This document shows positions 18,083 through 45,791 of a stretch of DNA of 64,000 nucleotides, in pieces. Location: the NCBI GenBank assembly GCA_050252545.1, contig JBFWKS010000001.1:3932-67931 (forward strand), in the 5' to 3' direction. The notes under the pieces are model-generated. The model made no database searches. It worked only from the letters and a program-made list of their open reading frames with translations, and was not told where the DNA came from. Within the stretch, counting starts at the first letter, position 1, and the number at the start of each line of letters is the position of its first letter. A program made the translations under genes and the position numbers. The stretch comes from Solirubrobacteraceae bacterium (GTDB lineage: Bacteria > Actinomycetota > Thermoleophilia > Solirubrobacterales > Solirubrobacteraceae).

Positions 18083-19228
18083 TCAGGCCGCCTTGGCCAG
18101 GTGGCGACCGATCACCATACGCTGGATCTGGTTGGTGCCCTCGAAGATCTGCATGACCTTCGCCTCGCGCATGAACCGCTCGACGGGGAAGTCCTTGGTG
18201 TAGCCGGCACCGCCGAGCACCTGCACGGCGTCGGTCGTCACCCGCATCGCCGCGTCGGTCGCGACGAGCTTGGCGATCGACGCCTGGCGCGAGAACGGCA
18301 GGCCGCGGTCGCGGCGGCGGGCGGCCTCCAGCATCGTCGCGCGCGCGGACTCGACCGCGGCGGCCATGTCGGCCAGCAGGAACGCGAGTCCCTGATGGTC
18401 GATGATCGTCCTGCCGAAGGCCTCGCGCTCCTTGGCGTACGTCACGGCGTGATCGAGCGCCGCCTGGGCGAGCCCGATGGCACACGCGGCGATCCCCAGA
18501 CGGCCGGAGTCCAGGGCCTGGAGGGCGATCGCCAGGCCCTGGCCCTCCGTGCCGATCCGCCGCTCGGTGGGCAGCGGGGTGCCGTCGAAGTCGACGGTGG
18601 CGGTGCTCGACCCGGTCAGGCCCATCTTGTGCTCGGGCGGCTGGGCGGACACGCCCTGCGCGTCGGCGGGGGTGAGGAAGCACGAGATCCCGGTGCGCTC
18701 GTCCGACGTCCGCGCGAAGAGCGCGTAGAAGTCGGCGTCCCCGCCGTGGGTCACCCACGCCTTGCTGCCGGTGACCTCGTACCCCTCGTCGGTCGCGCGG
18801 GCGGCGCAGCGCATCGCGGCCGGGTCCGATCCGGCGTGCGCCTCCGACAGGCAGTACCCGCCGAGCAGCTCGCCGCCGAGCATCTCCGGCAGCCAGCGGT
18901 CGCGCTGCTCGTCCGACCCGAACGTCGCGAGCGGGTAGCACGCCATCGTGTGCACGCTGACGCCGACGGCGACGCTCGCCCACGCGGCGCCGAGCTCCTC
19001 GAGCACCTGGAGGTAGACCTCGTAGGGCTGCCCGCCGCCACCGTGCTCCTCCGGGTAGGCCATGCCGAGGAGGCCGAGATCGCCGAGTCGGCGGAACGTC
19101 TCACGCGGGAAGACCGCGTCGGCCTCGGCGCGCGCCGCCTCGGGGAGCAGGTCCGTGCGGGCGAACTCACGCGCCAGGGCGACGATCTCCTCCGCCTCCG
19201 GGGTGGGCAGCGTCCGTTCGGCGGGCAT
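18083..19228 (-). CDS. Acyl-CoA dehydrogenase
   Basis: YCLSEAHAGSD, GSKAWVTHG, KMG, GRLGIAA, QIFEGTNQIQR. Confidence 0.93.
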   Translation of the reverse strand: MPAERTLPTPEAEEIVALAREFARTDLLPEAARAEADAVFPRETFRRLGDLGLLGMAYPEEHGGGGQPYEVYLQVLEELGAAWASVAVGVSVHTMACYPLATFGSDEQRDRWLPEMLGGELLGGYCLSEAHAGSDPAAMRCAARATDEGYEVTGSKAWVTHGGDADFYALFARTSDERTGISCFLTPADAQGVSAQPPEHKMGLTGSSTATVDFDGTPLPTERRIGTEGQGLAIALQALDSGRLGIAACAIGLAQAALDHAVTYAKEREAFGRTIIDHQGLAFLLADMAAAVESARATMLEAARRRDRGLPFSRQASIAKLVATDAAMRVTTDAVQVLGGAGYTKDFPVERFMREAKVMQIFEGTNQIQRMVIGRHLAKAA

Positions 19229-19452
19229 ACCCCCACGGTACCAGCAGAGGCCGTGTGGTACTCGCCGAATTCAGGCGCTTCCCCCGATCGGTGGGATCGG
19301 CGCACATGTCCGCGGTGGTTCGGGAGTACAGGGCGCCATCAACCGGCACTGCTGGGAGAGATATGAGACCAGCCGGATGGGGTATGAGGCGCCCCAGACG
19401 GAGTACTGCAGAGCGCAGAATAGTACGGCCGGGGCCAGCCGGTAGACGAGAA

Positions 19453-19468
19453 TCTCCCGTCCGGGGTA
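19453..19468. promoter_or_regulatory. Candidate regulator site A (TCWCCCG-N2-CGGGWGA family) upstream of Mce operon
   Basis: TCTCCCG-TC-CGGGGTA; similar to sites at 42428, 48514 and 51713. Confidence 0.45.
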
Positions 19469-19472
19469 TGGC

Positions 19473-19489
19473 GTGGACAAGCCGTCCAC
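19473..19489. promoter_or_regulatory. Perfect 17-bp inverted repeat, candidate PucR-family site
   Basis: GTGGAC-AAGCC-GTCCAC. Confidence 0.5.
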
Positions 19490-19632
19490 TGGGAGCCTGA
19501 CCGTGGTTCAGGGGGGAGACCCGGCCGAGGTCACGGAGCGGGCGACGCGTGCGTCGTTCCGACGAGTGCTCGCCGGACCGCGGTCGGTCCCCCTGCGGAA
19601 CACCAACGATGTTGCGAACGGCGGACACGACC

Positions 19633-20115
19633 ATGGAGCACCAGCCACCCCCCGGACGACCGAGCCGCGACGACGCGGACTCGGTGGCGATGGTGCGTGA
19701 GCGCGCCGATGTCGGCCATGCTGCGGGTGCGTGGCGGCGGGTTCTGGAGTTGTGGGACAAGGCGGCCGAGGATGAGGCCGCCCGTCGGTTGCTCGGGCGT
19801 GTCGGTCGTACGGTTCGGTTGTCGTCGTCGGATCTGCAGGACGCGTCGATCGTGATCCGTCTGCAGGGCGATATCGAGCTGATCGAGGATCGTGCGGAGC
19901 CTGCTGACATCGAGCTGACGATGGGCACCGCGGATCTGGAGCGTCATGCTGACGGGACGTTGCGTGTCGCGATGGCGATCGCCGCGGGGCGGGCGACGTT
20001 CACCGGGCCGGTTCGCGAGTTCCTGCGGGTGATCCCGATCGTCCACGCGATCGCCAATCCGCCGGTGGCCGTGGGGACCAACACCGACTTCGACGTCCAG
20101 GACGGGGAGTTCTGA
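19633..20115 (+). CDS. SCP2 sterol-carrier-like lipid-binding protein
   Basis: ADIELTMGTADLERHADGTLRVAMAIAAGRATFTGPVREFL aligns by eye to the SCP2 core of the 45390-45791 protein; TGATG coupling to the ATPase. Confidence 0.65.
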   Translation: MEHQPPPGRPSRDDADSVAMVRERADVGHAAGAWRRVLELWDKAAEDEAARRLLGRVGRTVRLSSSDLQDASIVIRLQGDIELIEDRAEPADIELTMGTADLERHADGTLRVAMAIAAGRATFTGPVREFLRVIPIVHAIANPPVAVGTNTDFDVQDGEF

Positions 20116-20990
20116 TGAGCACCACCACCTCTGCCGGCGCCGCCGATCCCGCGACCGCTGCGCTGTTGGACAAGGCCGCCGATTACGACCATCACGAGGG
20201 CGGCATGGTCGTGCCGCAGCGTGATCCGGGCGATTTCTGGTCGATCGAGTGCGTCGATCTGTACAAGTCGTTCGGGTCCAACCGGGTGATGAACGGCCTG
20301 AACGTCGGCATCCCGGAGGGGATGATCACGGTCATCCTCGGCCCGTCGGGCACCGGCAAGTCGGTCTTGCTGAGCCACCTGATCGGGTTGATGTTCCCCG
20401 ATCAGGGCGACATCCTCGTGCACGGCCAGTCGGTGCCGGACATGACGATGAAGCAGCTGCTGGAGATGCGGCGCAAGTTCGGGATCCTGTTCCAGGACGG
20501 CGCGCTCTTCGGATCGATGTCGGTGTACGACAACGTCGCGTTCCCGTTGCGCCAGCACACCGACTTCGACGAGAAGCAGATCCGCGACATCGTGATGGGC
20601 CGCCTCAGCGAGGTCGGCCTCGCGGGTGGGGCGGAGCTGCGGATGCCGGCCGAGTTGTCCGGCGGGATGAAGAAGCGTGCCGGGTTCGCGCGGGCGCTGG
20701 TCCTCGATCCGCAGATCGTCATGTTCGACGAGCCCGACTCGGGTCTGGACCCGGTCCGCACCGCGCTGCTCTGCCAGCTGATCGAGAAGGTGCACTCCGA
20801 GAACGGCGGCACCTACGTCGTCATCACCCACGACATCGCGTCCGCCCGACGGATCGGCGAGTACATCGCCGTGCTGTGGAAGGGCCGGATCGTGCAGTCC
20901 GGTGACCGCGACGACATGTTCGACTCCCCCAACCCCTTCGTCCGCCAGTTCCTGGCCGGCCGCCCCGGCGGCCCGCTCGGGATGGAGTGA
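20115..20990 (+). CDS. mceG: Mce/Mla-type ABC transporter ATPase
   Basis: Walker A GPSGTGKS, LFQDGALF, LSGGMKKR, FDEPDSGLDP, ITHD. Confidence 0.9.
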   Translation: MSTTTSAGAADPATAALLDKAADYDHHEGGMVVPQRDPGDFWSIECVDLYKSFGSNRVMNGLNVGIPEGMITVILGPSGTGKSVLLSHLIGLMFPDQGDILVHGQSVPDMTMKQLLEMRRKFGILFQDGALFGSMSVYDNVAFPLRQHTDFDEKQIRDIVMGRLSEVGLAGGAELRMPAELSGGMKKRAGFARALVLDPQIVMFDEPDSGLDPVRTALLCQLIEKVHSENGGTYVVITHDIASARRIGEYIAVLWKGRIVQSGDRDDMFDSPNPFVRQFLAGRPGGPLGME

Positions 20991-21011: not shown

Positions 21012-21884
21012 ATGGCGACCACCACACAACCCGCGACAGGACGCGTCGGTCCGTCCGGTCAGCCGACCGGGCCGGTCGACGGGCCCCCACCAGGCCGCAA
21101 GAGCGCCGGTCCGCTGGCACTGCTCGAGCAGATCGCGGACATGCTCATCCTCGCGTGGCGGACGCTCATCGCGGTCTTCACGCCGCCGTACTCCTGGCGC
21201 GACGAGTTCATCGAGGAGACCTGGATCATCATCCGGCGGTGCGCGATCCCGCTGATGATCTCGGCGACCGCGTTCGGCTTCGGGGCGCCGGGCCTGCAGG
21301 GCGGCAACCTCGTCGGCCTGCTCGGCACCATCGACCGGCTCGGCTCGTTCTTCGTCATGGCGTCGGTGCGGGAGTTCGCCCCGTGGATCACCGGCATGGT
21401 CGTGGCCGGCATCGGCGGCACCGCGGTGTGCGCCGACCTGGGCGCCCGCAAGGTCCGCCAAGAGCTCGACGCGATGATCACCCTGGGCCTCGACCCGGTG
21501 CGCACGATCGTCGCCCCCCGGTTCCTGGCGCTGGGCATCGTCACCGCCGCGATGAACCTGATCGCGATCATCATGGGCGTCGTCGGCGGCTGGCTCGCCG
21601 CGGTCGTCGTCTTCGGCGAGACGAGCGCCGGCTACTTCAGCACCTTCACCTCGAACTTCACCGTCCCGGACCTCCTGGGCAGCGTGCTCAAGACGACGCT
21701 GTTCGGCTTCATCGTCGCCGTCGTCTGTTGCTACAAGGGCATGCACACCAAGGGCGGTGCCGAGGGCGTCGGCCGGGCCGTCAACCAGGCGGTCGTCATC
21801 TCGTTCGTCGCCATCTGGGCGTTCAACTACGTGTTCACCACGACGTTGCTGGCCGCCTTTCCCGAGACGGGGAGCCTGCGATGA
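21012..21884 (+). CDS. yrbEA: YrbE/MlaE permease A
   Basis: VREFAPWITG, CADLGARKVRQELDAM, GGAEGVGRAVNQAVV. Confidence 0.9.
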   Translation: MATTTQPATGRVGPSGQPTGPVDGPPPGRKSAGPLALLEQIADMLILAWRTLIAVFTPPYSWRDEFIEETWIIIRRCAIPLMISATAFGFGAPGLQGGNLVGLLGTIDRLGSFFVMASVREFAPWITGMVVAGIGGTAVCADLGARKVRQELDAMITLGLDPVRTIVAPRFLALGIVTAAMNLIAIIMGVVGGWLAAVVVFGETSAGYFSTFTSNFTVPDLLGSVLKTTLFGFIVAVVCCYKGMHTKGGAEGVGRAVNQAVVISFVAIWAFNYVFTTTLLAAFPETGSLR

Positions 21885-22735
21885 GCACCGAGGCACCTCC
21901 CGGCTCCCGCCGGCCCCTGCGGCCGTCCGCCGGTCAGACCCTCGCCGAGGGCCTCGTCGGCCCGGTCCGCGGCACCCTGCGCGAGCTCGGAGAGATGACC
22001 CGGTTCTCGGGCCGCGCGGTCGTCGAGATCCCCGGGTCGTTCCGCTACACCGCGGAGATCCTGCGCCAGGCCGGTCTGTTGATCACCGGTTCGGCGATCG
22101 TCATCTGGGGCATGCAGTTCGTGATGGGCATGCAGTGCGCCACCGAGGCGAACTACGTGCTCCGCGGCTACGGCGCGTCCGCCTACTCCGGGGTGTTCAC
22201 CGCGCTGTGCGGCGCCCGCGAGATGGGCCCGTACATGTGGGGCTACATCGTCGCGGCCAAGATCGGCTGCGGCCTCGTCGCCGAGCTCGGATCGATGCGG
22301 ATCAACAACGAGTTCGACGCGATGGAGTCGGTCGGCATCAACCCGATGCGGTACGTCGTCGCCACGCGTCTCGTCGCCGCCTGGCTCGCCTTCCCGCTCC
22401 TCTACCTCGTCGGTCTGGCCTTCCACACGCTGGCGGACTTCTTCGTGATCGTCACCCAGATCAAGGAGGTCTCGCGTGGCGGGTTCGAGACGATCCACTG
22501 GCAGTTCGTGGGCCTGATGGACATCATCTATTCCGAGATCAAGATCATGGCCATGGGGACGCTCATCGTCCTGGTCGCCATGTACTACGGGTTCACCGCG
22601 CGCGGCGGACCGTCCGGAGTGGGCACCGCCACCGCCAAGTCGATGGTCCTCAACCTCGTCGTCGTCCACGTCGTCGGGTCCCTCCTGACGATGGTCTTCT
22701 GGGGCCTCGATCCCAGCTTCCCGGTCGGAGGGTGA
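21881..22735 (+). CDS. yrbEB: YrbE/MlaE permease B
   Basis: AKIGCGLVAELGSMRINNEFDAMES, GGPSGVGTAT. Confidence 0.9.
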   Translation: MSTEAPPGSRRPLRPSAGQTLAEGLVGPVRGTLRELGEMTRFSGRAVVEIPGSFRYTAEILRQAGLLITGSAIVIWGMQFVMGMQCATEANYVLRGYGASAYSGVFTALCGAREMGPYMWGYIVAAKIGCGLVAELGSMRINNEFDAMESVGINPMRYVVATRLVAAWLAFPLLYLVGLAFHTLADFFVIVTQIKEVSRGGFETIHWQFVGLMDIIYSEIKIMAMGTLIVLVAMYYGFTARGGPSGVGTATAKSMVLNLVVVHVVGSLLTMVFWGLDPSFPVGG

Positions 22736-22740
22736 CCCTG

Positions 22741-24045
22741 ATGCGTTCGATTCTGCGGCGGCCCTGGCCCGTCATCATCGTCGTGGGCATCGCGTTCCTC
22801 GGCTGGAAGGCGCTCAGCGATCGCCAACAGGAGTACGAGGTCCAGGCGGCGTTCGACTCCGCGGTGAACCTCACCACCGGCCTCGACGTCCAGATGCGTG
22901 GCGTCGACGTCGGAAAGGTCGCCGGGGTCCGGTACGAGGACGGCAAGGCGATCGTCTCGATCGGGGTCTCCGACGACCGTGTGTTCCCGCTCCGCAGGGG
23001 AACGAAGGCGACGATCCGATACGGCACGACCGTCGGCATCGGTACGCGCTACGTCGAGCTCCTCCCCGGACCGAAGGACGCACCGTCGATCCCCGACGGC
23101 GGCACCATCGCGTCGAAGGACGTCACGACCCCCGTCGAGCTCGACGAGGTGTTCAACACCCTCAACCCGGAGACGCGGGAGCGGCTCACGTCGCTCGTCG
23201 GCAACTCCGCTGACGTCACCGCCGGCCGGTCGAAGGAGCTCAACCGTGGCCTGCGGACGCTGCCGGGTGGGGTGCGGACCACCGGTGACGTCATGGGCGA
23301 CCTGCTCGCCGACGAACAGGCGATCCGTGCGCTCGTCGTCAACGGTGAGCGGGTCTCCCGAACGCTGGTGAGCCGCACCGGCGCGATCAGCGAGACGATC
23401 ACGGCCGCGCGACGGACGCTCGACGCGTTCGGCAACAGCGCCGACGGGGTCCGCGCCTCGATCGACGGCTTGGCCCCGACGTTCCGCCAGGCGCGCTCGA
23501 CCCTGCGTCGCGCCGACGGCAGCCTCGAGAAGGTCCGCACCCTCATCCGTGCCGTCGAACCCGGGGCCAAGCGGATCCCGGCGCTCGCCCGCGCGGCGCG
23601 CCCGGCGCTCGTGCGGCTGCAGCAGGTCACGCCCGTGGCGCTCGCCACGCTGCGGACGACCCGTGACGGCGCGCCGGCGGTGACGGAGCTCCTCGACAAG
23701 GGCCGCACCACGCTCCCGGCCGCGGGCACCGCGATGAAGACCGCGAACCCGATGCTCGCCTGCGTCCGGGCGTACGTCCCCGAGATCGCCGGGATGCTCG
23801 GCACCTGGGGCGGGGCGACGAAGAACTACGACGACCGGGGCCACTTCGGGCGGATCTTCGTGCGCGAGGGCGTCACCTCCCTGAACGGGCTGATCCCCGA
23901 CGCGGCGCTCCCGACCCTCCTCGGCCACAAGTTCGCGATGCCCCGACCGCCCGGACTCAACGCCGGAGCGGTGCACTACCCCGAGGAGTGTGAGGTGTCC
24001 GCGGACGCGCTCGACCCGACCAAGGACGTGGAGGCGGTCCGGTGA
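22741..24045 (+). CDS. MCE/MlaD family protein 1
   Basis: N-terminal TM, LTTGLDVQMRGVDVGKV, GTRYVELLPG, long helical region. Confidence 0.9.
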   Translation: MRSILRRPWPVIIVVGIAFLGWKALSDRQQEYEVQAAFDSAVNLTTGLDVQMRGVDVGKVAGVRYEDGKAIVSIGVSDDRVFPLRRGTKATIRYGTTVGIGTRYVELLPGPKDAPSIPDGGTIASKDVTTPVELDEVFNTLNPETRERLTSLVGNSADVTAGRSKELNRGLRTLPGGVRTTGDVMGDLLADEQAIRALVVNGERVSRTLVSRTGAISETITAARRTLDAFGNSADGVRASIDGLAPTFRQARSTLRRADGSLEKVRTLIRAVEPGAKRIPALARAARPALVRLQQVTPVALATLRTTRDGAPAVTELLDKGRTTLPAAGTAMKTANPMLACVRAYVPEIAGMLGTWGGATKNYDDRGHFGRIFVREGVTSLNGLIPDAALPTLLGHKFAMPRPPGLNAGAVHYPEECEVSADALDPTKDVEAVR

Positions 24046-25475
24046 ATCCGAAGATCCTCAGCACCGCGCTCGCGGCGGTCGTCGCGATCGTCGGCGTGAT
24101 CCTCCTCACCAGCGGTGGGGACGACGACGCTTACCAGGTCCGGATCGTCTTCGACGACGCCGGAGGCCTCGTCGAGAACGGCGACGTGAAGATCGGCGGC
24201 GTCGTCGCCGGGCGGATCATGAAGCTGCAGGTCACCGACGACGACCTGGGTGAGGCGATCGTCGAGCTCAAGGAGAACGCCGCCCCGATCGGACGCGGCG
24301 CCCGGGCCCGGGTCCGTCCCGTGAACCTCCTCGGCGAGAAGTACGTCGACCTCGACGCCGGTGACGTCCGCTCGCCGGAGCCGTCCGGGGTCGTCATCCC
24401 GCCCGGGCGGACCTCGGCGCCGGTCGAGCTCGACGACGCGATCAACATCCTCGATCCGGACAGTCGGGCGCGCCTTCGGATCCTCATCAACGAGACCGGC
24501 ATCGCTCTCGGCGGCAAGGGGACCGACCTCAACGCGACCCTCGCCCGTCTGCCCCGCGCCCTCGACGAGGCCGAGGAGCTCGTGAAATCGATCTCCGACA
24601 CGGGAAAGATCGACCGGCTCATCACCGACGGTGACCGCGTGCTCGCGGCCTTCAACGACGGACGCGACGACCTGACCGGCATGGTCGACTCGGCGGCGCG
24701 GACGCTCGCGGTCACCGCGCGCCTGCGGCAAGACCTGGGCCGGACCCTCGACGCCGCACCCGCCACCCTGACGCAGCTGCGCTCGACGCTCGTGAAGCTC
24801 GCGGGCACGGCGACGCGCCTGGAGCCCGCCGCCGTCGAGCTCCGTCGCACCGCGGGACCCCTCGCCGCGACGCTCAAGTCGGTCCCCGGCTTCCGGAGCG
24901 CGGCGGCGCCGACTCTGTCGCAGGTCCGGACGGTGTCGCCGAACCTCTCGCGCCTGGCGCGAGAGGCCTCGCCCACGATCCGGCGCCTGCAACCGCTCTC
25001 CGACGATCTCGTCACGTTCTCCCGGGCGCTCGATCCGGTGACGCGCATCCTCGACGTCCAGACCAACCCGCTGCTGCGCGTGATGGAGGGCTGGGCCCGC
25101 ACGATCCAGATGCGGGACGGTCTCGGGCACCTCTTCCGGACCGAGGTCACCGTCGACGAGGAGCTCCTCACGACGCTGCTCGTGCAGCTCCAGCCGGCGC
25201 CGACCGCGAACAAGCGCTCCCGCTCGGACGCGGACGACAAGCCGAGCGTCGCGGCCCGGAAGACGCCCCGATCGACGACTCGACGGCTGACGCCGGGCCC
25301 GGATCCGGCGCCGACCGCGACCGCGCGGACCCCGGACGACCGGTCGTCGTCCACGTCGACGGGGACGCCGCCCCCGGATCCCGCCGCGACGACCGGGGTG
25401 CCGTTGCTCGACGGCGCGGTCGGCGCGGTCGGCGGGGCCCTGACCGACCTCCTCGACTCCCTCCAAGGCCGATGA
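24042..25475 (+). CDS. MCE/MlaD family protein 2
   Basis: GLVENGDVKIGGVVAGRI, LLGEKYVDL; Pro/Thr-rich C-terminal tail. Confidence 0.9.
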   Translation: MNPKILSTALAAVVAIVGVILLTSGGDDDAYQVRIVFDDAGGLVENGDVKIGGVVAGRIMKLQVTDDDLGEAIVELKENAAPIGRGARARVRPVNLLGEKYVDLDAGDVRSPEPSGVVIPPGRTSAPVELDDAINILDPDSRARLRILINETGIALGGKGTDLNATLARLPRALDEAEELVKSISDTGKIDRLITDGDRVLAAFNDGRDDLTGMVDSAARTLAVTARLRQDLGRTLDAAPATLTQLRSTLVKLAGTATRLEPAAVELRRTAGPLAATLKSVPGFRSAAAPTLSQVRTVSPNLSRLAREASPTIRRLQPLSDDLVTFSRALDPVTRILDVQTNPLLRVMEGWARTIQMRDGLGHLFRTEVTVDEELLTTLLVQLQPAPTANKRSRSDADDKPSVAARKTPRSTTRRLTPGPDPAPTATARTPDDRSSSTSTGTPPPDPAATTGVPLLDGAVGAVGGALTDLLDSLQGR

Positions 25476-26770
25476 CCTCCCGACGCCGCTCCCGCCGTTT
25501 CTCCCGCGCGGCCAGCGCGACCCTGCCGCGGCCGGTGCTCTGGCTGCTGGGCCTGGGCGCCCTCGCCGCGGTCGCCGCCATGGCCTGGGTCGGGTTCAAC
25601 GCCCCGAACTCGATCCCGGGACGGAGCTACTACACCGTCCAGGCGGAGTTCGAGGACGCCAACAACCTGACCGGCCACTACGAGGTCCGCATCGCCGGCC
25701 GGCGCGTCGGCCAGGTGCTGAACCCGCGGGTGGTGGACGGCAAGGCCGTCGTCGACCTCCAACTCGAGCCCGACGTCGCCCCACTGCGGTCCGACACCAA
25801 GCTCCGGGTCCGTCCGCGCAGTGCGATCGGCGTCCGGTTCGTCGACGTCAGCCCGGGCGTGAAGGGGCGCCCGCTCGAGGAGGGCGACACGATCGCCGCG
25901 GCGAACACGTCGACCGTCGTCGAGCTCGACGAGGTCCTGGGCACGCTGGACGCACGCCGCCGGGTCGACGCCCGTACCGTCGTCCAGGAGCTCGGCACGG
26001 GCTTCGCCGGACGGGGCGAGGAGCTCAACGAGATGCTCGACGGCACCCCGACCGCCCTCGACCGGGTGGCTCGCGTCGCCGGCGAGATCAACGCTCGGGT
26101 CGGAGCGATGAGCGGGCTCATCGAGGGACTGGCCGGAACGCTCGGCGCGATCGATCCGGCGCGCGACGAGTACGTCAACGCGTTCGACTCGACCTCCCGG
26201 GGTCTGCGCCCGTTCGCGGAGAGCGAGCAGGACCTCGGGGCATCGCTCGACCGGGCCCCGGCCGCGCTGAGCGTCGCCCGGGCCGGCCTGCGCGACGCCG
26301 ACCCGTTGCTCGACGAGCTGTCCGGCATGGGTCGGGAGCTCGTTCCGGCGCTGCGGCCGGCGCCCGCCGGCCTGCGCCAGGCGGATGCGCTGCTCCGCGA
26401 ATCCCGTGACGGCCTCCGCGCCGCCCGCACGACGCTCCGGCAAGCGGACGACGCGATCCCGGTCACGCTCGACCTGCTGAAGCGCCTCGATCCGGTCATC
26501 CCGACGACGAGCGAGGCGCTGAAGGAATCGCTGCCGACGCTGGGCGAGGTCGGACCGCGCGGGTGCGACATCGCGCTATTCACGAAGAACTGGAGCTCGA
26601 TGCTCGGCCCCGCCGCCGCCGGCGGTGACCCGCGACTCGGCGGCGTGAGCAGCCTGCGTCTGCTCCTCATCGCGTCGCTCGAGAGCGTGATGGGGACCAC
26701 CCAACGGCTCCCGACCGTGATGTCGAACCCGTATCCCAAGCCCTGCACGGTGACGGAGGATCGTCGATGA
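25472..26770 (+). CDS. MCE/MlaD family protein 3
   Basis: LTGHYEVRIAGRRVGQV, IGVRFVDVSPG. Confidence 0.9.
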   Translation: MTSRRRSRRFSRAASATLPRPVLWLLGLGALAAVAAMAWVGFNAPNSIPGRSYYTVQAEFEDANNLTGHYEVRIAGRRVGQVLNPRVVDGKAVVDLQLEPDVAPLRSDTKLRVRPRSAIGVRFVDVSPGVKGRPLEEGDTIAAANTSTVVELDEVLGTLDARRRVDARTVVQELGTGFAGRGEELNEMLDGTPTALDRVARVAGEINARVGAMSGLIEGLAGTLGAIDPARDEYVNAFDSTSRGLRPFAESEQDLGASLDRAPAALSVARAGLRDADPLLDELSGMGRELVPALRPAPAGLRQADALLRESRDGLRAARTTLRQADDAIPVTLDLLKRLDPVIPTTSEALKESLPTLGEVGPRGCDIALFTKNWSSMLGPAAAGGDPRLGGVSSLRLLLIASLESVMGTTQRLPTVMSNPYPKPCTVTEDRR

Positions 26771-28191
26771 AGCTCTCCGAGCGATTCCAGCACCGGCCCG
26801 GCCGCGCCCGGCCGCGCCCTGTCCGCGTCGGCCTCATCGCCCTGGCGGTCCTGGGCGTCGTGCTCTACATGGGCTACACGAGCACCAACCCGCTCTCGGG
26901 CGGCAAGGGTGATCTGATCCGGGCCGAGTTCCGCGACGCGACGCACCTGCGCGCGAACACCGACGTCCGCGTCGCGGGGGTCAACGTCGGCAAGGTCGAG
27001 GAGGTCGAGCTCTCCGACGACACCAGCCGCGCCGTCGTGAAGCTGCGGATGAACTCCGACTCCGGCGTCACCCTCCATCGCGACGCCCGGGCCGCCGTCT
27101 GGTGGCGCACGCTCCTCGGCCGCAACACCTACGTCGAGATCGAGCCGGGTTCGCCATCGGCCGGCGAGCTGGGCGAGGGCACCATCCCTCTGGGACGCAC
27201 GACCGTCCAGGAGGAGCTCGACGCCGTCGTCTCGGCGCTCCCGCCCGAGCAGCGTCAGGCGACGCGCCAGATCATCGGCGGCTTCGACGAGGGCTTCTCT
27301 GACACCGCCGGCGGACGGCGGACCATCGACGCGCTCGACGGGGCGGGGCCGTCGCTCGCCCGTGGCCTCCGCGGACTCCGCGGCACCGAGGCCGGCGACC
27401 TGCCCAAGCTCGTCCGCGAGATGTCGAAGACCCTGGGCATCTTCGGTCGCAACGTCGTCGAGCTCGCGGGCTTCATCGACAACGGCCGGATCGCGCTCGG
27501 CACCATGAGCGCGAACTCCCCCGCCATCTCGCGCCTCGTCCGTGAGGCTCCGGCCGCCCTCGCCGACACGCGCCTCACGCTCACCCGGGTCGAGAAGACC
27601 CTCGACGACCTGGATCCGTTGGCCGTCAAGCTCGTGCCCGGCGCACGGAAGCTCGACCCGGCCGCCCGTGCCGCGACGCCGATGCTCCGGCGCCTCGACA
27701 CCGTTCTGAAGGACGCGACCCCGACGCTCCGCGATCTGCGCCCCGCCGTTCGGCGCCTGGCCGCGATGGCCCCGACGGGCAGGAAGGTCCTCACCGACCT
27801 GGACCCGACGATCGCCCGTCTGAACGACGAGCTGCTGCCGTGGCTCGACGAAGGTGACCCGGAGACGAAGATGCGCAACTACCAGGCGATCGGACCGTTC
27901 TTCAGCGCGACCAACTCGATGGGCTCCCCGTTCGACGCGAACGGCAACGTCCTCAACTTCCAGACGTTCGTCGACGAACGGTCCCTCCTCACCCTGGGCT
28001 GCATCACCCGCCTGACCGACCCGACCGCGACGATCACCCAGAAGCTCGACTGCCGTGGCCTCGAGGCGATCGTCCGGCGCATGTTGTCCGGTCAGGCCCC
28101 TCCCGGTGCCGGCGAGTTCGACCCCGCGCTCGACGAGGACGTCGGTGACCGCTCGCGTGCCGCGGGCCTGGCCCGGAAGGGAGCCCGCTGA
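26767..28191 (+). CDS. MCE/MlaD family protein 4
   Basis: LRANTDVRVAGVNVGKV, LLGRNTYVEIEPG. Confidence 0.9.
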   Translation: MKLSERFQHRPGRARPRPVRVGLIALAVLGVVLYMGYTSTNPLSGGKGDLIRAEFRDATHLRANTDVRVAGVNVGKVEEVELSDDTSRAVVKLRMNSDSGVTLHRDARAAVWWRTLLGRNTYVEIEPGSPSAGELGEGTIPLGRTTVQEELDAVVSALPPEQRQATRQIIGGFDEGFSDTAGGRRTIDALDGAGPSLARGLRGLRGTEAGDLPKLVREMSKTLGIFGRNVVELAGFIDNGRIALGTMSANSPAISRLVREAPAALADTRLTLTRVEKTLDDLDPLAVKLVPGARKLDPAARAATPMLRRLDTVLKDATPTLRDLRPAVRRLAAMAPTGRKVLTDLDPTIARLNDELLPWLDEGDPETKMRNYQAIGPFFSATNSMGSPFDANGNVLNFQTFVDERSLLTLGCITRLTDPTATITQKLDCRGLEAIVRRMLSGQAPPGAGEFDPALDEDVGDRSRAAGLARKGAR

Positions 28192-29456
28192 TGCGGTTCA
28201 ACCGAGATCGCCTCGCGCTCGAGGTCCAGCGGGCACGTGGACCGTTCCTGCTCTACATCCTCCTCGTGGCACTGGGAATCGTCGCGATGTGGTACCTCAC
28301 ACGCAACCTCGTCATCCAGTGGCCCTGGCAGGACACGAAGACGGCGAGGATCGTCGTCGACGACGCCAAGGGCATCGTGCCCGGCCAGCAGGATGTCCGG
28401 ATCGCGGGCGTCAAGGTCGGCCTGATCGAAGACGTCGAGACCGACGGCAAGGGTGCCGTCGTCACCCTGTCGCTGGAGGACAAGGCCGGGCCGATCTACA
28501 AGAACGCCCGGATGCGGATCCGGCCGGTCACACCGCTGCAGGACATGTACGTCGCGATCGAGAACCGCGGCACGCCCGAGGCGGGCGAGCTCGACGAGGA
28601 GACCGTGCTTCCCGCGGGGCGCACCGAGACTCCGACCGACGTCTCGCGTGTCCTCAACGTCATGGACGCCGATTCCCGTCAGCGGGTCCAGGCGCTGCTC
28701 AGCGGGCTGTCGGAGGGTCTGCCCGACGGTGGCGAGCGGCTGCGGAGCGCGTTCGCGGCGGTCGGACCGTTCGTCGAGCAGGCCACCGAGCTCACCGACG
28801 CGATGGGTCGACGCCGATCGCAGCTCGCGCGCCTGGTGCACAACGGCAGCCGACTCGCGGCCGCGATCAACACCCGCGACCGGCAGCTCGCCCAACTCAT
28901 GCAGGCCGGCAACGCGACGATGGCGGAGTTGGCGCAGCACAACGCCAACCTCGGATCGACGCTCGCTCAGCTCCCCGACACGCTCGCCGTGATGCGGAGC
29001 TCGTTCGCGCGGCTGCGCAAGTCGGAGGACCAGATCGACCCGGCTCTCCGGGCCCTCATCCCGGTCGCGGACAACCTCGAGGACGGCCTCGAGGGCCTGC
29101 GTCGGGTGAGCGGTGACGCGATGCCCGCGCTCGCGGCCGTGCGGACGCCGGTCAAGCAGCTGCGCCCGCTCGCCGGCGACCTCGAGACGACCTCCGATCG
29201 CCTCGACACCGCGCTCGGCGAGCTCGCACCGCAGGTGCCGCGGCTCGACCGGGCCACGAAGAAGGTCCTGCCCTGTCGATTCGCGACGGCCAAGTTCTTC
29301 CAGTGGACCCCGTCGGTCCTGAAGTACTACGACTCCGCCGGAGCCTACCCACGCGGTGAGATGGTCTACGGGACCGACGTCGTGCCCGGGCCCGGCAACA
29401 CGGATCCCGCGCTGTTCCGGCCGTGGACCTGCACCCAGAAGGAGGGACGGCCGTGA
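28191..29456 (+). CDS. MCE/MlaD family protein 5
   Basis: IVPGQQDVRIAGVKVGLI, PLQDMYVAI. Confidence 0.9.
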   Translation: MRFNRDRLALEVQRARGPFLLYILLVALGIVAMWYLTRNLVIQWPWQDTKTARIVVDDAKGIVPGQQDVRIAGVKVGLIEDVETDGKGAVVTLSLEDKAGPIYKNARMRIRPVTPLQDMYVAIENRGTPEAGELDEETVLPAGRTETPTDVSRVLNVMDADSRQRVQALLSGLSEGLPDGGERLRSAFAAVGPFVEQATELTDAMGRRRSQLARLVHNGSRLAAAINTRDRQLAQLMQAGNATMAELAQHNANLGSTLAQLPDTLAVMRSSFARLRKSEDQIDPALRALIPVADNLEDGLEGLRRVSGDAMPALAAVRTPVKQLRPLAGDLETTSDRLDTALGELAPQVPRLDRATKKVLPCRFATAKFFQWTPSVLKYYDSAGAYPRGEMVYGTDVVPGPGNTDPALFRPWTCTQKEGRP

Positions 29457-30796
29457 AGATCGAATACCGCGGAGCGAAGGTCATGGCGATCATCGCCTTC
29501 CTCGCGCTGTGCCTCGGCATCTTCGTCTGGCTCTTCGGACTGGCCGGAGGCCGGATGCTCGAAGGGTCGTCCTACACGGCGGTCGTCCGCATGCCGGACG
29601 CGTTCCAGCTCGTGTCGAACGCCGACGTCCGCAGCGCGGGCGTCAAGGTCGGCAAGGTCCGTGAGGTCACCAACGACGGGGACCAGGCCCGGGTGACGAT
29701 CAGCCTCGACGACGACCACGCGCCGCTGAACAAGGACGCGACGATCAAGCTGCGGACCAAGACGCTCGTCGGCGAGAACTACCTCGAGCTCATTCCGGGC
29801 AGCCCGAGGGCGGGCACCGTGCCGTCGGGCGGGACGCTGCCGCTGGAGCGGGCCGGGGAGTCGGTCCAGCTCGACCAGATCCTGTCCTCGATCGACCGGG
29901 AGACCCGGCGCGAGGTCCAGCGCAACCTCAAGCAGGTCGGCCCGGGCCTGGAGGGCCGCGGTAACGACACCAACGAGCTGTTCAAGGCCATGCCCCCGAC
30001 GGTGGACAACTCCTCCGCCGTCGCCCGCGTCCTCGACGGCCAGCGCGAGCAGCTCGGCCGTGTGGTCGACCAGGGCGGGCAGCTCCTCAAGGCCTTCGCG
30101 AACCGGTCCGACGACGTCCGGGCGCTCGCCGGTGGCCTGCGCCGCACGACCGCGGCGGTCGCCGATCGCGACGCCGCCCTCCGCGAGGGTTTCCGCGAGC
30201 TCCCGGCGACCCTCGAGCAGATCCAGAGCACGGCCGGACGCCTGGGATCGGTGGCGCGCGAGAGCACGCCGGTCGTCGCGTCCCTGCGCACCGGGGTGCG
30301 GTCGCTGCCGCCCGTCACCTCCCGCCTCGCCGCGGCGGCGTCGGACGGACGCCGGATCTTCCGGATCCTGCCGTCGGTCTCGCGCCGCGCCGACCCGCTG
30401 CTCGAGAGCCTGCGCGAGTTCTCCAAGGACGCCAACCCGGTGATCCCCCAGTTCGCCGGGTTCCTCCGGCAGGTCAATCCCGCGCTGCGCTACATCGGTC
30501 CGCGCGCTGAGGACATGGTCACGGCCATCGCCAACCTGGGTTCGGCCACCGATAGCCGCGACGACGCGGGCCACCTCGCCCGCGTCCACGTGGTCGTCAG
30601 CGAGAAGACGGTCACGGGGCTCGGCGTCACCGATCTCGTCGAGCGGTTCCTCGACCTCACCGGCGCCTCGTCGGTCTTCCGCAGCCGGCTCAACTCCTAC
30701 CCCGTGCCGGGCACGCGCGACGCGCCGCAGCCGTTCAAGCCCGGCGACTACGCGCCGCTGAAGGCGGACCCCCCGATCGCCGGTGCCGATGGGTGA
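29453..30796 (+). CDS. MCE/MlaD family protein 6
   Basis: LVSNADVRSAGVKVGKV, LVGENYLELIPG; GTGA overlap. Confidence 0.9.
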   Translation: MKIEYRGAKVMAIIAFLALCLGIFVWLFGLAGGRMLEGSSYTAVVRMPDAFQLVSNADVRSAGVKVGKVREVTNDGDQARVTISLDDDHAPLNKDATIKLRTKTLVGENYLELIPGSPRAGTVPSGGTLPLERAGESVQLDQILSSIDRETRREVQRNLKQVGPGLEGRGNDTNELFKAMPPTVDNSSAVARVLDGQREQLGRVVDQGGQLLKAFANRSDDVRALAGGLRRTTAAVADRDAALREGFRELPATLEQIQSTAGRLGSVARESTPVVASLRTGVRSLPPVTSRLAAAASDGRRIFRILPSVSRRADPLLESLREFSKDANPVIPQFAGFLRQVNPALRYIGPRAEDMVTAIANLGSATDSRDDAGHLARVHVVVSEKTVTGLGVTDLVERFLDLTGASSVFRSRLNSYPVPGTRDAPQPFKPGDYAPLKADPPIAGADG

Positions 30797-31995: not shown

Positions 31996-33270
31996 GTGAA
32001 GCCGCGGCCCGGCAGAGCGAGCGCCGTACCCGTCTGCTCCCCGAAGGCCGAGCAGCTGATCGCGGTCGCCGCCGGACGGCTGGAGCGGACGTCGGACGCC
32101 GTCGCCGTCCGTCTGATCGAAGAGGTCGAGATCCGCATGCCCGAGCTCAAGGGCGACGAGGAGTTCCACGACGCGCTGCTCGGGGTCGCGCGCGGGAGCG
32201 TCGAGCTGATCTCGACGATGATGCGCACGTGGACCGACCCGAGCGTCGTGCCGCCCCCACACGAGGCGCTCGAGTGGGCGCGCAGCCTCGTCGGTCGCGG
32301 CGTGTCGATCAACGACCTCCTGCGCGTGTACCGGCTCGGGCAGGCGACCTACCAGGACCTGTTCTACGCCGAGGTCGGCCAGCAGGGCGCCGATCCTGTG
32401 ACCGCGATGGAGGCGATGCGCGCCTGCTCCGCGTTCGCGTTCGCGTGGATCGACGCGATCTCCACGCCACTGATAGCCGCCTACGAGGAGGAGCGCGACC
32501 GGCGTCAGCAGGGTGCGGAGGCGGTGCGCGTCGAGACGATCGAGGCGATCCTCGCGGGCGAGGCGGTCGACCCGCAGATCGCCGGTGCCCGGCTCCGGTA
32601 CGACCTGGGCCGTCGGCACGTGTGCTTCGTCGTGTGGGCCGACGACGACGGTGGTCCAGCCACGCCGCTCGACCTGGACCAGGCGGTCAGCGAGGTCATC
32701 GCCGTGATCGGGGGCGGCGGTCGGCCGCTGCTGCTGCGGTCCTCGCCACGGGTCACGATCGGGTGGACGGCCCGGTCGACGGCCGACGACGGAACCGAGG
32801 ACGCGCTGGCGCCGCGGCTGCGCCGGTCCGGCTGCCGGGTCGCGGTCGGGGCGGTCGGGGAGGGCGTCGCCGGGTTCCGCACGTCGCACGATCAGGCGAT
32901 GCGGGCTCGCCGCGTGGCCCGAATCCTCCGCGGCGGCGCCCAGGCGACGTTCTTCGACGCGGTGGCGGTCGAGGACCTGCTGACGCGTGACGTCGACGCC
33001 GCGCGTGCGTTGGCGGTACGGACGCTCGGCCCGCTCGCGGCCGACGACGACGCCACGCGACGCCTGCGGACCACGCTGCGCGTGTACCTGGAGGAGGGCC
33101 AGAGCCTGGCGCGAGCGTCGCGTCGACTCGGTATCCATCAGAACACGATCGCCTACCGCGTACGGCGGGCGATCGAGCTCACCGGGCAGTCCGACGCGGG
33201 CTCCAAGGCCCTGCAGGCAGCCGTGCTGCTCGCGCCGCTGCTGGGCGGCAAGGACGCCGACGGGGGCTGA
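31996..33270 (+). CDS. PucR/CdaR family transcriptional regulator
   Basis: Helical N-domain, GGDEF-like middle, C-terminal HTH ([32 protein letters not shown]). Confidence 0.9.
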
Positions 33271-33411: not shown

Positions 33412-33595
33412 CACGACCGGACGATCCTGTGGCGAAAGGTTGGGCGGGGAGCCGCGATGCGAGCGACCATCCAGCCAGGGGAGGGACCCGACGGTGCTGG
33501 TGATTTCACCGATGTGTCGTGGGCACGGTTCGGTGTTCGCCCCAGTCCGCGATTCGGCGGGCAGGAGAGGATCAGGCAGTCCACCGGGGAGAGAG

Positions 33596-42337: not shown

Positions 42338-42390
42338 GCCAGATCCCTGCTCACCATCACGCGTTGTGGACACCATGACGCCTCGCCCGT

Positions 42391-45389: not shown

Positions 45390-45791
45390 TCAGACGGCGG
45401 CGCCGTCCTTCTCCGCGACCATCTCGCGGTACATCGGGAAGAGCGGCTTGGTCAGCGGCACGAGCTTGAGGATCTTGGCGACCGGGCCCTTCGCCTTGAC
45501 CTGGCCCTTGGCCAGACCGACGGCGAGGTTGTACTCGCCGCGCCAGAACTTGTCGCCGATGTCCGACGGCATGTAGAGCTTGACGTCGGCGTCCTCGTTC
45601 TCGGTGTCGTCGAGCACCTCGAGCTTGGGCTCGTGCATCTTGATCAGGACCTTCGCGTCCGGATCGCTGTAGTAGACCTGCAGGTCGATGTCGGCGGCGG
45701 CGAGCTTGGCGCCCTCCGGCGTGTCGGCGGCCTTGCGGAACACGCCACCGAGGTACTGCTCGACCTCTTCGCGGTCCTTGAAGTAGGGCAT
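45390..45791 (-). CDS. SCP2 sterol-carrier domain protein
   Basis: KFWRGEYNLAVGLAKGQVKAKGPVAKILKLVP. Confidence 0.85.
   Translation of the reverse strand: MPYFKDREEVEQYLGGVFRKAADTPEGAKLAAADIDLQVYYSDPDAKVLIKMHEPKLEVLDDTENEDADVKLYMPSDIGDKFWRGEYNLAVGLAKGQVKAKGPVAKILKLVPLTKPLFPMYREMVAEKDGAAV

What the first reader, a model, noticed from the sequence alone, without database searches (positions are those of the whole stretch)
19633..20990. SCP2 lipid-carrier gene is the first cistron of the Mce operon, translationally coupled to the ATPase
Seen: a soluble 160-aa SCP2-like ORF overlaps the ABC ATPase start (TGATG at 20113-20117), and the ATPase sits inside the operon. Known: mycobacterial mce operons carry yrbE/mce/mam genes with an unlinked MceG, and Mla uses a STAS protein (MlaB); a sterol-carrier subunit is not a standard part. 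Inference: a cytoplasmic lipid acceptor docking on the Mce ABC core, a possibly new Mce accessory component.
Basis: partly seen in the sequence, partly recalled or inferred. Interest (0 to 1): 0.65.

Follow-up and report, generated by a model that had tools for sequence, protein, structure and literature searches.

The report
SCP2-fold partner protein of the Mce ATPase
A small, unannotated protein with the fold of a sterol/lipid carrier (SCP2) is a conserved partner of the ATPase that powers Mce lipid importers in Patulibacter and related soil actinobacteria. It is sometimes a separate first gene and sometimes fused to the ATPase, which points to an undescribed step on the cytoplasmic side of these transporters.

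Summary
Window 19633-20115 (+) encodes a soluble SCP2-fold protein whose stop overlaps the start of an MceG/Mkl ATPase (TGATG, 20113-20117). It is followed by yrbEA, yrbEB and six mce genes. The single-sequence Pfam hit is below threshold (20.0 vs 21.3 bits). Profile-profile comparison (98.95 %, E 1e-17) and an AlphaFold2 model whose top 36 PDB matches are all SCP2-fold proteins settle the fold.

The pairing is not unique to this genome:
- Every orthologue found in Patulibacter is followed directly by mceG, mostly with ATGA, GTGA or TTGA overlaps.
- A paralogue in the same genome and 78 further protein clusters from Solirubrobacterales carry the SCP2 domain and MceG in one polypeptide.
- The SCP2 and MceG trees are congruent.

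This is strong Rosetta-stone evidence for a physical partnership with the ATPase.

What the partner does is not shown. It occurs fused to the ATPase, and the same subfamily is also paired or fused with PucR- and LuxR-type regulator modules. I therefore favour a tethered lipid-sensing or gating subunit over a free lipid shuttle.

An in-operon ATPase is already known from Streptomyces and Nocardia. I found no paper linking SCP2 to Mce systems.

Verdict: new variant of a known kind, interest about 0.6.

The parts
18083..19228 (-). Acyl-CoA dehydrogenase gene, transcribed divergently from the mce cluster
   Evidence: Pfam Acyl-CoA_dh_N/M/1 with E down to 2.5e-50 and NCBIfam acyl-CoA dehydrogenase families. 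The same neighbour is present in the closest relative.
19229..19632 (.). Divergent intergenic and promoter region. It contains the perfect palindrome GTGGAC-N5-GTCCAC at 19473-19489.
   Evidence: Sequence. No sigma-70 consensus and no terminator was found. Indels that are not multiples of three against the nearest relative show that the DNA upstream of about 19600 is non-coding. The left arm of the palindrome is not conserved there.
19633..20115 (+). Gene for a divergent SCP2-fold protein (160 aa; alternative starts 19690 = 141 aa and 19609). It is the first cistron of the cluster.
   Evidence: PF02036 20.0 bits. Of 80 family members, 42 hit SCP2. hhalign against bona fide SCP2 gives 98.95 %. 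The AF2 core has pLDDT above 90 and the top 36 Foldseek PDB hits are all SCP2 fold. dN/dS is 0.23.
20104..20109 (+). Shine-Dalgarno GGGGAG for mceG, lying inside the SCP2 gene
   Evidence: GAGGAG/GGAG occupies the equivalent position in the orthologous junctions.
20113..20117 (+). TGATG stop/start overlap between the SCP2-like gene and mceG
   Evidence: Among 14 Patulibacter loci there are nine 4-nt overlaps (ATGA, GTGA or TTGA), two TGATG overlaps and three short gaps.
20115..20990 (+). MceG/Mkl-type ABC ATPase (291 aa) with an N-terminal extension of about 40 residues
   Evidence: ABC_tran E 6.8e-27; best NCBIfam match MlaF, 227 bits. The paralogous fused copy matches M. smegmatis MceG (8fed) at 51 % identity and rmsd 1.3 A. 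The MceG copies elsewhere in the order that have no SCP2 partner align only from about residue 35 to 43.
21012..21884 (+). YrbEA permease
   Evidence: PF02405 MlaE, E 3.3e-55.
21881..22735 (+). YrbEB permease (ATGA overlap with yrbEA)
   Evidence: PF02405 MlaE, E 1.3e-50 in this frame; start codon.
22732..30796 (+). Six mce genes: 22732-24045, 24042-25475, 25472-26770, 26767-28191, 28191-29456, 29423-30796
   Evidence: PF02470 MlaD in each, and Mce4_CUP1 in several. Start codons overlap the preceding stops.
31996..33270 (+). PucR/Rv1453-type regulator. Its N-terminal domain is homologous to the ~200-aa domain found fused upstream of the SCP2 domain in relatives.
   Evidence: HTH_30 and GGDEF_2; Rv1453 family. 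BLASTP of P0017 residues 15-164 against regulator residues 16-163: 29 % identity, E 2e-14.
33440..34879 (+). GAF-GerE (LuxR-type) regulator. This class of gene directly follows the three fused SCP2-MceG genes whose surroundings I examined.
   Evidence: GerE, GAF. Contexts: L101, L103, L104.

Best explanation
Gene 19633-20115 encodes a cytoplasmic SCP2-fold protein that is a dedicated partner of the MceG ATPase of this Mce lipid importer. It is made in step with MceG, because the ribosome-binding site and start codon of mceG lie inside its 3' end. It binds the nucleotide-binding domain of the ATPase, and in many relatives it is the N-terminal domain of MceG itself.

Most likely mechanism (inferred): the SCP2 pocket binds the transported lipid or a cytoplasmic derivative of it. 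It acts as a tethered sensor or gate that couples the lipid load on the cytoplasmic side to ATPase activity. This would resemble the regulatory domains of MetN, ModC and MalK, or the way MlaB controls MlaF. It may also couple to the PucR/LuxR regulators encoded nearby.

Shown here: fold, conserved gene order, overlap, fusions, co-divergence. Inferred: physical binding in the two-gene form, lipid binding, and the regulatory effect.

My odds: dedicated MceG-bound subunit about 0.85. Within that, sensor or gate about 0.45, local acceptor or hand-off site about 0.30, structural stabiliser without lipid about 0.15. The confidence figure of 0.45 is for the full statement including the sensor or gate mechanism.
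For: - Fold: 42 of 80 family members hit PF02036 and 11 hit the related Alkyl_sulf_C; nothing else recurs. hhalign against bona fide SCP2 gives 98.95 %, E 1e-17 over 122 columns. The AF2 model has pLDDT 85, with the core above 90. Its top 36 PDB hits are all SCP2-fold proteins, including lipid-bound mosquito SCP2 and UbiJ.
- Linkage: every window-type orthologue in Patulibacter is followed at once by mceG and yrbEA where sequence is available. Stop/start overlaps and an embedded Shine-Dalgarno are conserved.
- In the own genome, all three ATPase-first mce ATPases that can be assessed have an SCP2 partner, and the yrbEAB-mceG operon has none.
- Fusions: own-genome contig C15 (394 aa); G345 (404 aa); 5 of 13 metagenome loci; 79 clusters of 357-424 aa including the own copy. 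There is also one possible C-terminal fusion (P0069) and one reversed gene order.
- The fusion model has pTM 0.89 despite a linker of pLDDT 52-59, which implies a defined packing of the two domains.
- The SCP2 and MceG trees share their deepest split, apart from one long-branch row, and four sister pairs. Mantel r is 0.72, reached by 0 of 2000 permutations.
- For the sensor reading: the same subfamily is fused to a PucR-N-like domain, occurs as the triple fusion PucR-N-SCP2-MceG (P0015), and is gene-coupled to LuxR and PucR regulators. A LuxR gene follows all three fusion genes whose surroundings I examined.
Against: - No experiment or co-folding shows binding in the two-gene form.
- I could not read model coordinates or PAE, so neither the interface nor a hydrophobic tunnel was checked.
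- The window protein itself is below Pfam's cut-off.
- Some SCP2-fold domains, such as the C-terminal domain of Eis, are not known as lipid carriers as far as I recall, so the fold alone does not show lipid binding.
- One MceG paralogue group in the genus (about 70 % identity) has no adjacent SCP2 gene, only one 5-10 kb away.
- 6 of 15 Patulibacter genomes lack the window-type orthologue, so it is not essential to Mce transport in general.
- Regulator genes often sit near mce operons anyway, so the LuxR/PucR neighbourhood may reflect shared location rather than function.
Confidence: 0.45

Rival explanations
1. Cytoplasmic lipid acceptor or hand-off site. The SCP2 pocket sits under the YrbEAB exit and takes the imported lipid from the transporter. 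It then presents the lipid to acyl-CoA synthetases or dehydrogenases, pulling transport forward without regulating the ATPase.
For: The canonical role of the fold is lipid carriage; the best matches include SCP2 with bound C16 fatty acid and UbiJ. Expression is coupled to the ATPase. Acyl-CoA dehydrogenase genes are recurrent neighbours. The fate of lipid at the cytoplasmic face of Mce transporters is stated as open in the Mce1 structure paper (PMC9882608).
Against: In at least 79 clusters the domain is covalently fixed to the ATPase, so it cannot shuttle. No domain appended to the ATPase of an ABC importer is known to me to act as a substrate acceptor. The same subfamily also occurs with regulators and no transporter nearby (L138; L051).
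Confidence: 0.3
2. MlaB-like structural or stabilising subunit. The SCP2-fold domain only stabilises or helps assemble MceG on YrbEAB, as the STAS protein MlaB does for MlaF, and binds no lipid.
For: It is a small cytoplasmic protein encoded with the ATPase. Fusion to the ATPase is tolerated at the N-terminus, and possibly at the C-terminus. It evolves about four times faster than MceG (median terminal branch 0.72 vs 0.18; dN/dS 0.23 vs 0.08), as expected for a scaffold with few constraints.
Against: The fold is SCP2, not STAS. The most conserved segment of the family alignment (GPVRxxLRVxP and the helix after it) lines up with the C-terminal segment conserved in classical SCP2. Coupling to PucR/LuxR modules is not explained.
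Confidence: 0.15
3. No direct interaction. The SCP2-like gene is just a co-expressed lipid-metabolism gene that happens to lie in front of mceG.
For: Lipid-handling genes cluster in this region. Classical SCP2 genes also lie next to mce genes without an ATPase in other families.
Against: Repeated fusion into one polypeptide, congruent trees and strict adjacency across paralogous operons are not expected for a mere neighbour.
Confidence: 0.05

Closest known systems
MlaB (STAS domain) bound to the MlaF ATPase in MlaFEDB of E. coli and other Gram-negative bacteria
   Same: A small cytoplasmic protein encoded in the operon of an MCE-type ABC transporter that acts on its ATPase. MlaF is a close structural match of the ATPase here, second only to MceG (6xgy, 6xbd).
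   Different: The fold is STAS, not SCP2. As far as I know MlaB is not reported to bind lipid and is not usually fused to MlaF. The protein here is the first gene and is often the N-terminal domain of the ATPase.
Actinobacterial mce operons with mkl/mceG directly upstream of yrbEA (Streptomyces SCO2422, Nocardia nfa51100; Casali and Riley 2007, PMC1810536)
   Same: ATPase-first order mceG-yrbEA-yrbEB-mce x6, as in the window.
   Different: No SCP2 gene or domain is described there; the word 'sterol' does not occur in that paper. The family was found in only 7 of 401 sampled Actinomycetota genomes, and next to mceG only in the window's own family.
Regulatory domains on ABC-importer ATPases (MetN C2, ModC, MalK; established knowledge)
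   Same: An extra domain on the ATPase that binds a small molecule or partner in the cytoplasm and feeds back on transport. MalK also controls the LuxR-family activator MalT. MetNI appears among the structural matches of the ATPase part.
   Different: Those domains are C-terminal and have other folds. Here the domain is SCP2 and mostly N-terminal or a separate protein. Its regulatory role is inferred, not shown.
SCP2 superfamily proteins (eukaryotic SCP2/SCPx, MFE-2 SCP2L, bacterial UbiJ/UbiT, Thermus SCP2)
   Same: Same fold (TM 0.6-0.73 normalised to target) and the same C-terminal motif pattern. UbiJ likewise holds hydrophobic molecules inside a protein complex.
   Different: This is a distinct subfamily (signature LLLDR...GPVRxxLRVxPxxR). 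It scores 192 bits on its own profile against 33 on the classical one. No solved relative is detectable by sequence. Linkage to an ABC ATPase is not described for any of them in what I could search.
Mycobacterial Mce accessory factors (LucA, LucB, Mam/Mas, OmamA)
   Same: Extra, lineage-specific components that modulate Mce transporters (PMC9882608).
   Different: Those are membrane proteins that act on the Mce or YrbE parts. The protein here is soluble and tied to the ATPase.

Membership tests
SCP2 (Pfam PF02036, SCP2 superfamily) | Score above Pfam's gathering cut-off | tested here: not met
   The window protein scores 20.0 bits against a cut-off of 21.3. Several relatives pass: P0011 29.9, P0015 25.4, P0042 24.5, L013 22.1. 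42 of 80 members hit at E <= 0.01.
SCP2 (Pfam PF02036, SCP2 superfamily) | Homology at profile level to bona fide members | tested here: met
   hhalign of the family profile A3 against SCP2 proteins that score 30-35 bits on PF02036: probability 98.95 %, E 1e-17, 122 columns.
SCP2 (Pfam PF02036, SCP2 superfamily) | Alpha/beta SCP2 fold | tested here: met
   AF2 model with mean pLDDT 85 and core above 90. All 36 Foldseek PDB hits with E <= 1e-3 are SCP2-fold proteins.
SCP2 (Pfam PF02036, SCP2 superfamily) | Hydrophobic tunnel that binds a lipid | not testable with these tools
There are no binding data.
MceG/Mkl ATPase of MCE transporters (for 20115-20990) | ABC ATPase most similar to MlaF/MceG and encoded with yrbE and mce genes | tested here: met
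   ABC_tran E 6.8e-27. Best NCBIfam family is MlaF at 227 bits, below its equivalog cut-off of 441, so it is not MlaF itself. yrbEA/B and six mce genes follow. The paralogue's ATPase domain is 51 % identical to M. smegmatis MceG (8fed).
Actinobacterial Mce operon (2 yrbE + 6 mce) | Two MlaE-type permease genes followed by six MlaD-domain genes | tested here: met
MlaB-type STAS accessory protein | STAS fold | tested here: not met
   No STAS hit in Pfam. The fold is SCP2. The resemblance is functional only.
Substrate-sensing regulatory domain of an ABC importer ATPase (trans-inhibition type) | Covalent or stable attachment to the ATPase | tested here: met
   79 clusters of fusion proteins. The fusion model has pTM 0.89. 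For the two-gene form in the window, attachment is inferred only.
Substrate-sensing regulatory domain of an ABC importer ATPase (trans-inhibition type) | Ligand-dependent change of ATPase activity | not testable with these tools
   This needs biochemistry.

The most novel reading that the evidence does not exclude
The SCP2 domain is the hub of a transport-coupled signalling device. Docked on MceG, it reports lipid flux or load. Through PucR-N-type and LuxR-type partners it controls transcription of the mce and lipid-catabolic genes, a lipid counterpart of the MalK-MalT circuit. The partners are fused to it in relatives and are encoded beside the operon here. The triple fusion PucR-N-SCP2-MceG would then be a regulator-sequestering transporter subunit.
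Probability: 0.15. Interest if true: 0.8.

Novelty: new variant of a known kind. Interest (0 to 1): 0.6.

Why it matters
Mce transporters import fatty acids and sterols in actinobacteria, including mycobacteria. What happens to the lipid at the cytoplasmic face, and how the ATPase is controlled, is still open (PMC9882608).

This SCP2-fold partner is a lipid-binding-type module attached to the ATPase, either as a separate protein or as a fused domain. It gives a concrete, testable handle on that step in organisms where evolution has made the link explicit. Cultured strains carry it: Patulibacter minatonensis DSM 18081, P. brassicae and Paraconexibacter sp. AEG42_29.

It also corrects annotation. 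About 80 clusters named only 'phospholipid/cholesterol/gamma-HCH transport ATP-binding protein' or 'Mkl' carry an unrecognised N-terminal SCP2 domain of about 130 residues. The stand-alone proteins are listed as hypothetical.

The reach is limited. The subfamily was found almost only in Solirubrobacterales (Thermoleophilia) and in soil metagenomes.

Tried and rejected
- NCBIfam gives no family for the protein.
- A family-profile search of PDB sequences gave only a chance LysR hit at E 0.72.
Narrower alignments worked, but they bias the sampled loci towards one subfamily.
- The class-level count with the broad profile A3 (23 of 201 genomes) does not measure the MceG-linked subfamily. That profile also picks up classical SCP2 proteins.
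- I rejected the idea that the two-gene form is a frameshift or assembly artefact of a fused gene. The split is conserved in more than 10 genomes with different junction sequences.
- MlaB/STAS membership is rejected on fold.
- I tested whether the palindrome at 19473-19489 marks a conserved operator in front of the SCP2 gene. It is not conserved in the nearest relative. The pattern is absent from the other orthologous promoters.
- What looked like an MceG-SCP2 fusion in G345 (a 418-aa open frame) is two adjacent genes in different frames, in the order mceG then SCP2.
- Four literature searches for SCP2 or sterol carrier together with mce operon, MceG, Mce4 or mammalian cell entry gave nothing relevant. 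A looser search (SCP2, MlaF, MCE; any two terms) listed no paper holding SCP2 with either Mla/Mce term in a relevant sense among those shown. A search for SCP2 domain, ABC transporter and Actinobacteria found no paper.
Full report
**1. What is in the sequence**

On the + strand, ORF 19633-20115 ends with TGA at 20113-20115. A GGGGAG Shine-Dalgarno lies at 20104-20109, inside the last codons of the upstream ORF.

Pfam and NCBIfam assign the downstream genes as follows:
- an MlaF/MceG-type ABC ATPase (20115-20990);
- two MlaE-type permeases, YrbEA (21012-21884) and YrbEB (21881-22735);
- six MlaD/Mce proteins (22732-30796), nearly all with overlapping stops and starts.

The gene upstream (18083-19228) is an acyl-CoA dehydrogenase on the opposite strand. 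The small ORF is therefore the first gene of a tightly packed ten-gene cluster.

Related loci carry record titles naming Patulibacter (Thermoleophilia, Solirubrobacterales).

The start codon is uncertain. Gene callers in public collections use ATG 19690 (141 aa). The 19 codons before it evolve nearly neutrally (dN 0.28, dS 0.35), while the rest has dN/dS 0.18. The N-terminal 20 residues are modelled with low confidence. Alignment with the nearest relative shows non-triplet indels upstream of about 19600, so that DNA is non-coding.

**2. Is it SCP2?**

The window protein alone is marginal: PF02036 at 20.0 bits against a cut-off of 21.3. It has no NCBIfam family, and a family-profile search found no solved relative by sequence. 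At the family level the answer is clear.

- A profile search of 1.84 billion representative proteins found 284 clusters at E <= 1e-3. Of 80 members scanned, 42 hit SCP2 (best E 9.5e-8) and 11 hit the related Alkyl_sulf_C. No other family recurred.
- Profile-profile comparison with bona fide SCP2 proteins (30-35 bits on PF02036) gives probability 98.95 %, E 1e-17, over 122 columns.
- An AlphaFold2 model has mean pLDDT 85, with the core above 90. Its 36 significant PDB matches are all SCP2-fold proteins. They include yeast, insect (with bound C16 fatty acid), rabbit and human SCP2, MFE-2 SCP2L, UbiJ, Thermus SCP2 and the alkylsulfatase C-terminal domain.

The protein belongs to a distinct subfamily with the signature ...LLLDR...GPVRxxLRVxPxxR. 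It scores 192 bits on its own profile and 33 on the classical SCP2 profile. It has no hydrophobic N-terminal segment, so it should be cytoplasmic (from reading the sequence). It is under purifying selection, with dN/dS 0.23 against 0.08 for MceG.

**3. Is the pairing with the ATPase more than a local accident?**

*Within the genus.* Nine of 15 species-representative Patulibacter genomes carry the window-type orthologue at 34-81 % identity. In every locus where downstream sequence exists, mceG and then yrbEA follow directly. The named strains P. brassicae, P. minatonensis DSM 18081 and Patulibacter sp. NPDC049589 show the same.

The 14 Patulibacter junctions examined are nine 4-nt overlaps (ATGA, GTGA or TTGA), two TGATG overlaps and three gaps of 2 to about 15 nt. 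A GGAG-type Shine-Dalgarno sits in the SCP2 gene's last codons.

*Within the window's own genome.* There are five MceG paralogues.
- The three ATPase-first copies that can be assessed all have an SCP2 partner: the window copy, contig C5 with a GTGA overlap, and contig C15.
- The copy on C85 sits in a yrbEA-yrbEB-mceG-mce operon and has no SCP2 partner. That gene order is the one found in the other genera of the family and order that I sampled.
- The copy on C96 lies at a contig end.

*Fusions.* In C15 the SCP2 domain and MceG form one 394-aa open reading frame. The same fusion occurs in:
- a complete genome of the same family (404 aa);
- 5 of 13 soil-metagenome loci, where 3 or 4 more have the two genes adjacent and separate;
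- 79 protein clusters at 90 % identity, 357-424 aa, counting the own-genome copy.

The sources of these clusters name Solirubrobacteraceae, Conexibacter, Paraconexibacter sp. AEG42_29 and Thermoleophilaceae. They are annotated only as 'phospholipid/cholesterol/gamma-HCH transport system ATP-binding protein', 'Mkl' or 'ABC transporter', and the precomputed Pfam domains cover only the ATPase part.

Other arrangements also exist: a triple fusion of a PucR-N-like domain, SCP2 and MceG (P0015, 628 aa); a possible C-terminal fusion (P0069); and the reversed gene order mceG then SCP2.

*Co-divergence.* Maximum-likelihood trees of 24 SCP2 domains and of their partner MceGs share the deepest split, fused-type clade against window-type clade, apart from one long-branch row (L045). 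They also share four sister pairs. The distance matrices correlate (Mantel r 0.72, reached by 0 of 2000 permutations). Relatedness among the genomes inflates such statistics. But paralogues from a single genome fall into different clades in both trees in the same way. This indicates that the pair has been inherited as a unit since before the paralogues diverged.

*Fusion model.* The AlphaFold2 model of the own-genome fusion has pLDDT 89.3 and pTM 0.89, although the 20-residue linker has pLDDT 52-59. That implies a defined packing of the SCP2 domain on the ATPase domain. I could not read coordinates or PAE, so I cannot name the interface. The ATPase part matches M. smegmatis MceG in the Mce1 complex (8fed, 51 % identity, rmsd 1.3 A), then MlaF. 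No PDB chain covers both domains.

**4. Limits of the distribution**

With the subfamily profile, only 7 of 401 sampled Actinomycetota genomes had a hit at E <= 1e-6. Only those in the window's own family lay next to mceG. That search scored only 9 candidates per genome, so the count is a lower bound.

Six of 15 Patulibacter genomes lack the window-type orthologue. One MceG paralogue group (about 70 % identity) has no adjacent SCP2 gene. Its neighbourhood holds an SCP2-like gene 5-10 kb away, among LuxR genes.

The partner is therefore a lineage-specific addition to particular MceG lineages. It is not a general part of Mce systems.

**5. How it most likely works**

Shown: SCP2 fold, co-encoding with embedded translation signals, repeated fusion, co-divergence.

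From this I infer, at about 0.85, that the protein is a subunit bound to the MceG ATPase domain.

For its role I weigh three options.

- *Free shuttle.* This is hard to reconcile with covalent fusion to a membrane-complex ATPase.
- *Sensor or gate (about 0.45).* Extra domains on ABC-importer ATPases known to me (MetN, ModC, MalK) sense cytoplasmic ligands or partners and feed back on transport. MlaB regulates MlaF. The same SCP2 subfamily is also wired to transcription-factor modules:
  - It is fused behind a ~200-aa domain homologous to the N-domain of the PucR regulator encoded just downstream of this operon (29 % identity, E 2e-14).
  - It is translationally coupled to a LuxR gene divergent from a yrbE-mce operon. 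It sits just upstream of a LuxR gene in a second metagenome locus.
  - It is paired with a PucR gene with no mce genes within 8 kb.
  - All three fusion genes whose surroundings I examined are followed by a GAF/GerE regulator.
- *Fixed local acceptor or hand-off site (about 0.30) and lipid-free stabiliser (about 0.15).* Both remain open.

None of these roles has been tested.

**6. Comparison with what is known**

An ATPase gene directly upstream of yrbEA is known for Streptomyces, Nocardia, Nocardioides, Janibacter and Amycolatopsis (PMC1810536). That part of the finding is not new.

The Mce1 cryo-EM paper lists membrane accessory factors (LucA, LucB and 'accessory' proteins). It leaves open whether substrates go to the cytoplasm or to the inner membrane, and it names no soluble cytoplasmic partner (PMC9882608).

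Literature searches combining SCP2 or sterol carrier with mce operon, MceG, Mce4, MlaF, mammalian cell entry or ABC transporter found nothing relevant. The library holds open-access papers and bioRxiv only, so a description elsewhere cannot be excluded.

An earlier unverified note of this scan (e1-4294653) reports an SCP2-like gene in ATGA overlap with mceG after mceF in another genome. I saw related tail arrangements myself.

**7. Verdict**

This is a new variant of a known kind, an Mce ABC importer whose ATPase has gained an SCP2-fold subunit or domain. Interest is about 0.6. It is a clean, testable and apparently undescribed component that bears on an open question about Mce transport, but it is confined to a little-studied lineage.

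The look-up of sequencing runs, so there is no transcript evidence; model coordinates and PAE.

Noticed in passing
L135:4872-14896 (G593:C1), also L108-L113 and L118: In another family of Solirubrobacterales, a classical SCP2 gene (130-150 bits on the classical profile) lies directly downstream of a mce gene (the last of six in L135, the one locus examined in full), in a locus without yrbE or mceG. This is a second, independent SCP2-Mce association.
   Followed up: partly
window 31996-33270; P0011, P0013, P0017, P0152, P0015; L138:7091-8510: A ~200-aa domain homologous to the N-domain of the window's PucR-type regulator is fused in front of the SCP2 domain in many proteins, and once in front of SCP2-MceG. 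In G345 an SCP2-like gene directly precedes a full PucR regulator gene with no mce genes within 8 kb.
   Followed up: partly
L101 (own genome C15), L103 (Paraconexibacter CP114014), L104, L051/L052, L086: All three fused SCP2-MceG genes examined are followed by a GAF/GerE (LuxR-type) regulator gene. In two metagenome contexts a stand-alone SCP2-like gene sits just upstream of a LuxR gene; in L051/L052 the two overlap by 4 nt.
   Followed up: partly
window 19473-19489: The perfect palindrome GTGGAC-N5-GTCCAC in the mce promoter region has a degenerate left arm (GAGGGC) in the nearest relative. The pattern KTGGWC-N5-GWCCAM does not occur in the promoters of the other orthologous loci. The flanking 60 bp are highly conserved.
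   Followed up: partly
window 45390-45791 (-): A second SCP2 protein, of the classical type (68 % identical to the one on own-genome contig C10), lies in the window and is not next to mce genes.
   Followed up: no
window 37610-42376 (-): A glycerolipid synthesis block: NAD-dependent glycerol-3-phosphate dehydrogenase, a HAD-acyltransferase fusion and a PlsB-like glycerol-3-phosphate acyltransferase.
   Followed up: no
L050 / L134 (own genome C117:9842-10207): An SCP2-like ORF of the MceG-linked subfamily ends in '...PELLAID'. This resembles the linker that precedes the ATPase domain in the fusions, but no ATPase follows. It may be a degraded fusion or an assembly frameshift. A LuxR fragment is nearby.
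   Followed up: no
L066-L085 (other genera of the family and order): Outside Patulibacter the conserved order is yrbEA-yrbEB-mceG. These MceG proteins lack the N-terminal extension of about 40 residues that the window-type MceG carries.
   Followed up: partly
L142-L144 (G001, G003, G005): An orphan MceG paralogue group (about 70 % identical to the window's) has no yrbE or mce genes in the flanks examined. It sits in a neighbourhood with two to four GAF-LuxR genes and an SCP2-like gene 5-10 kb away.
   Followed up: partly
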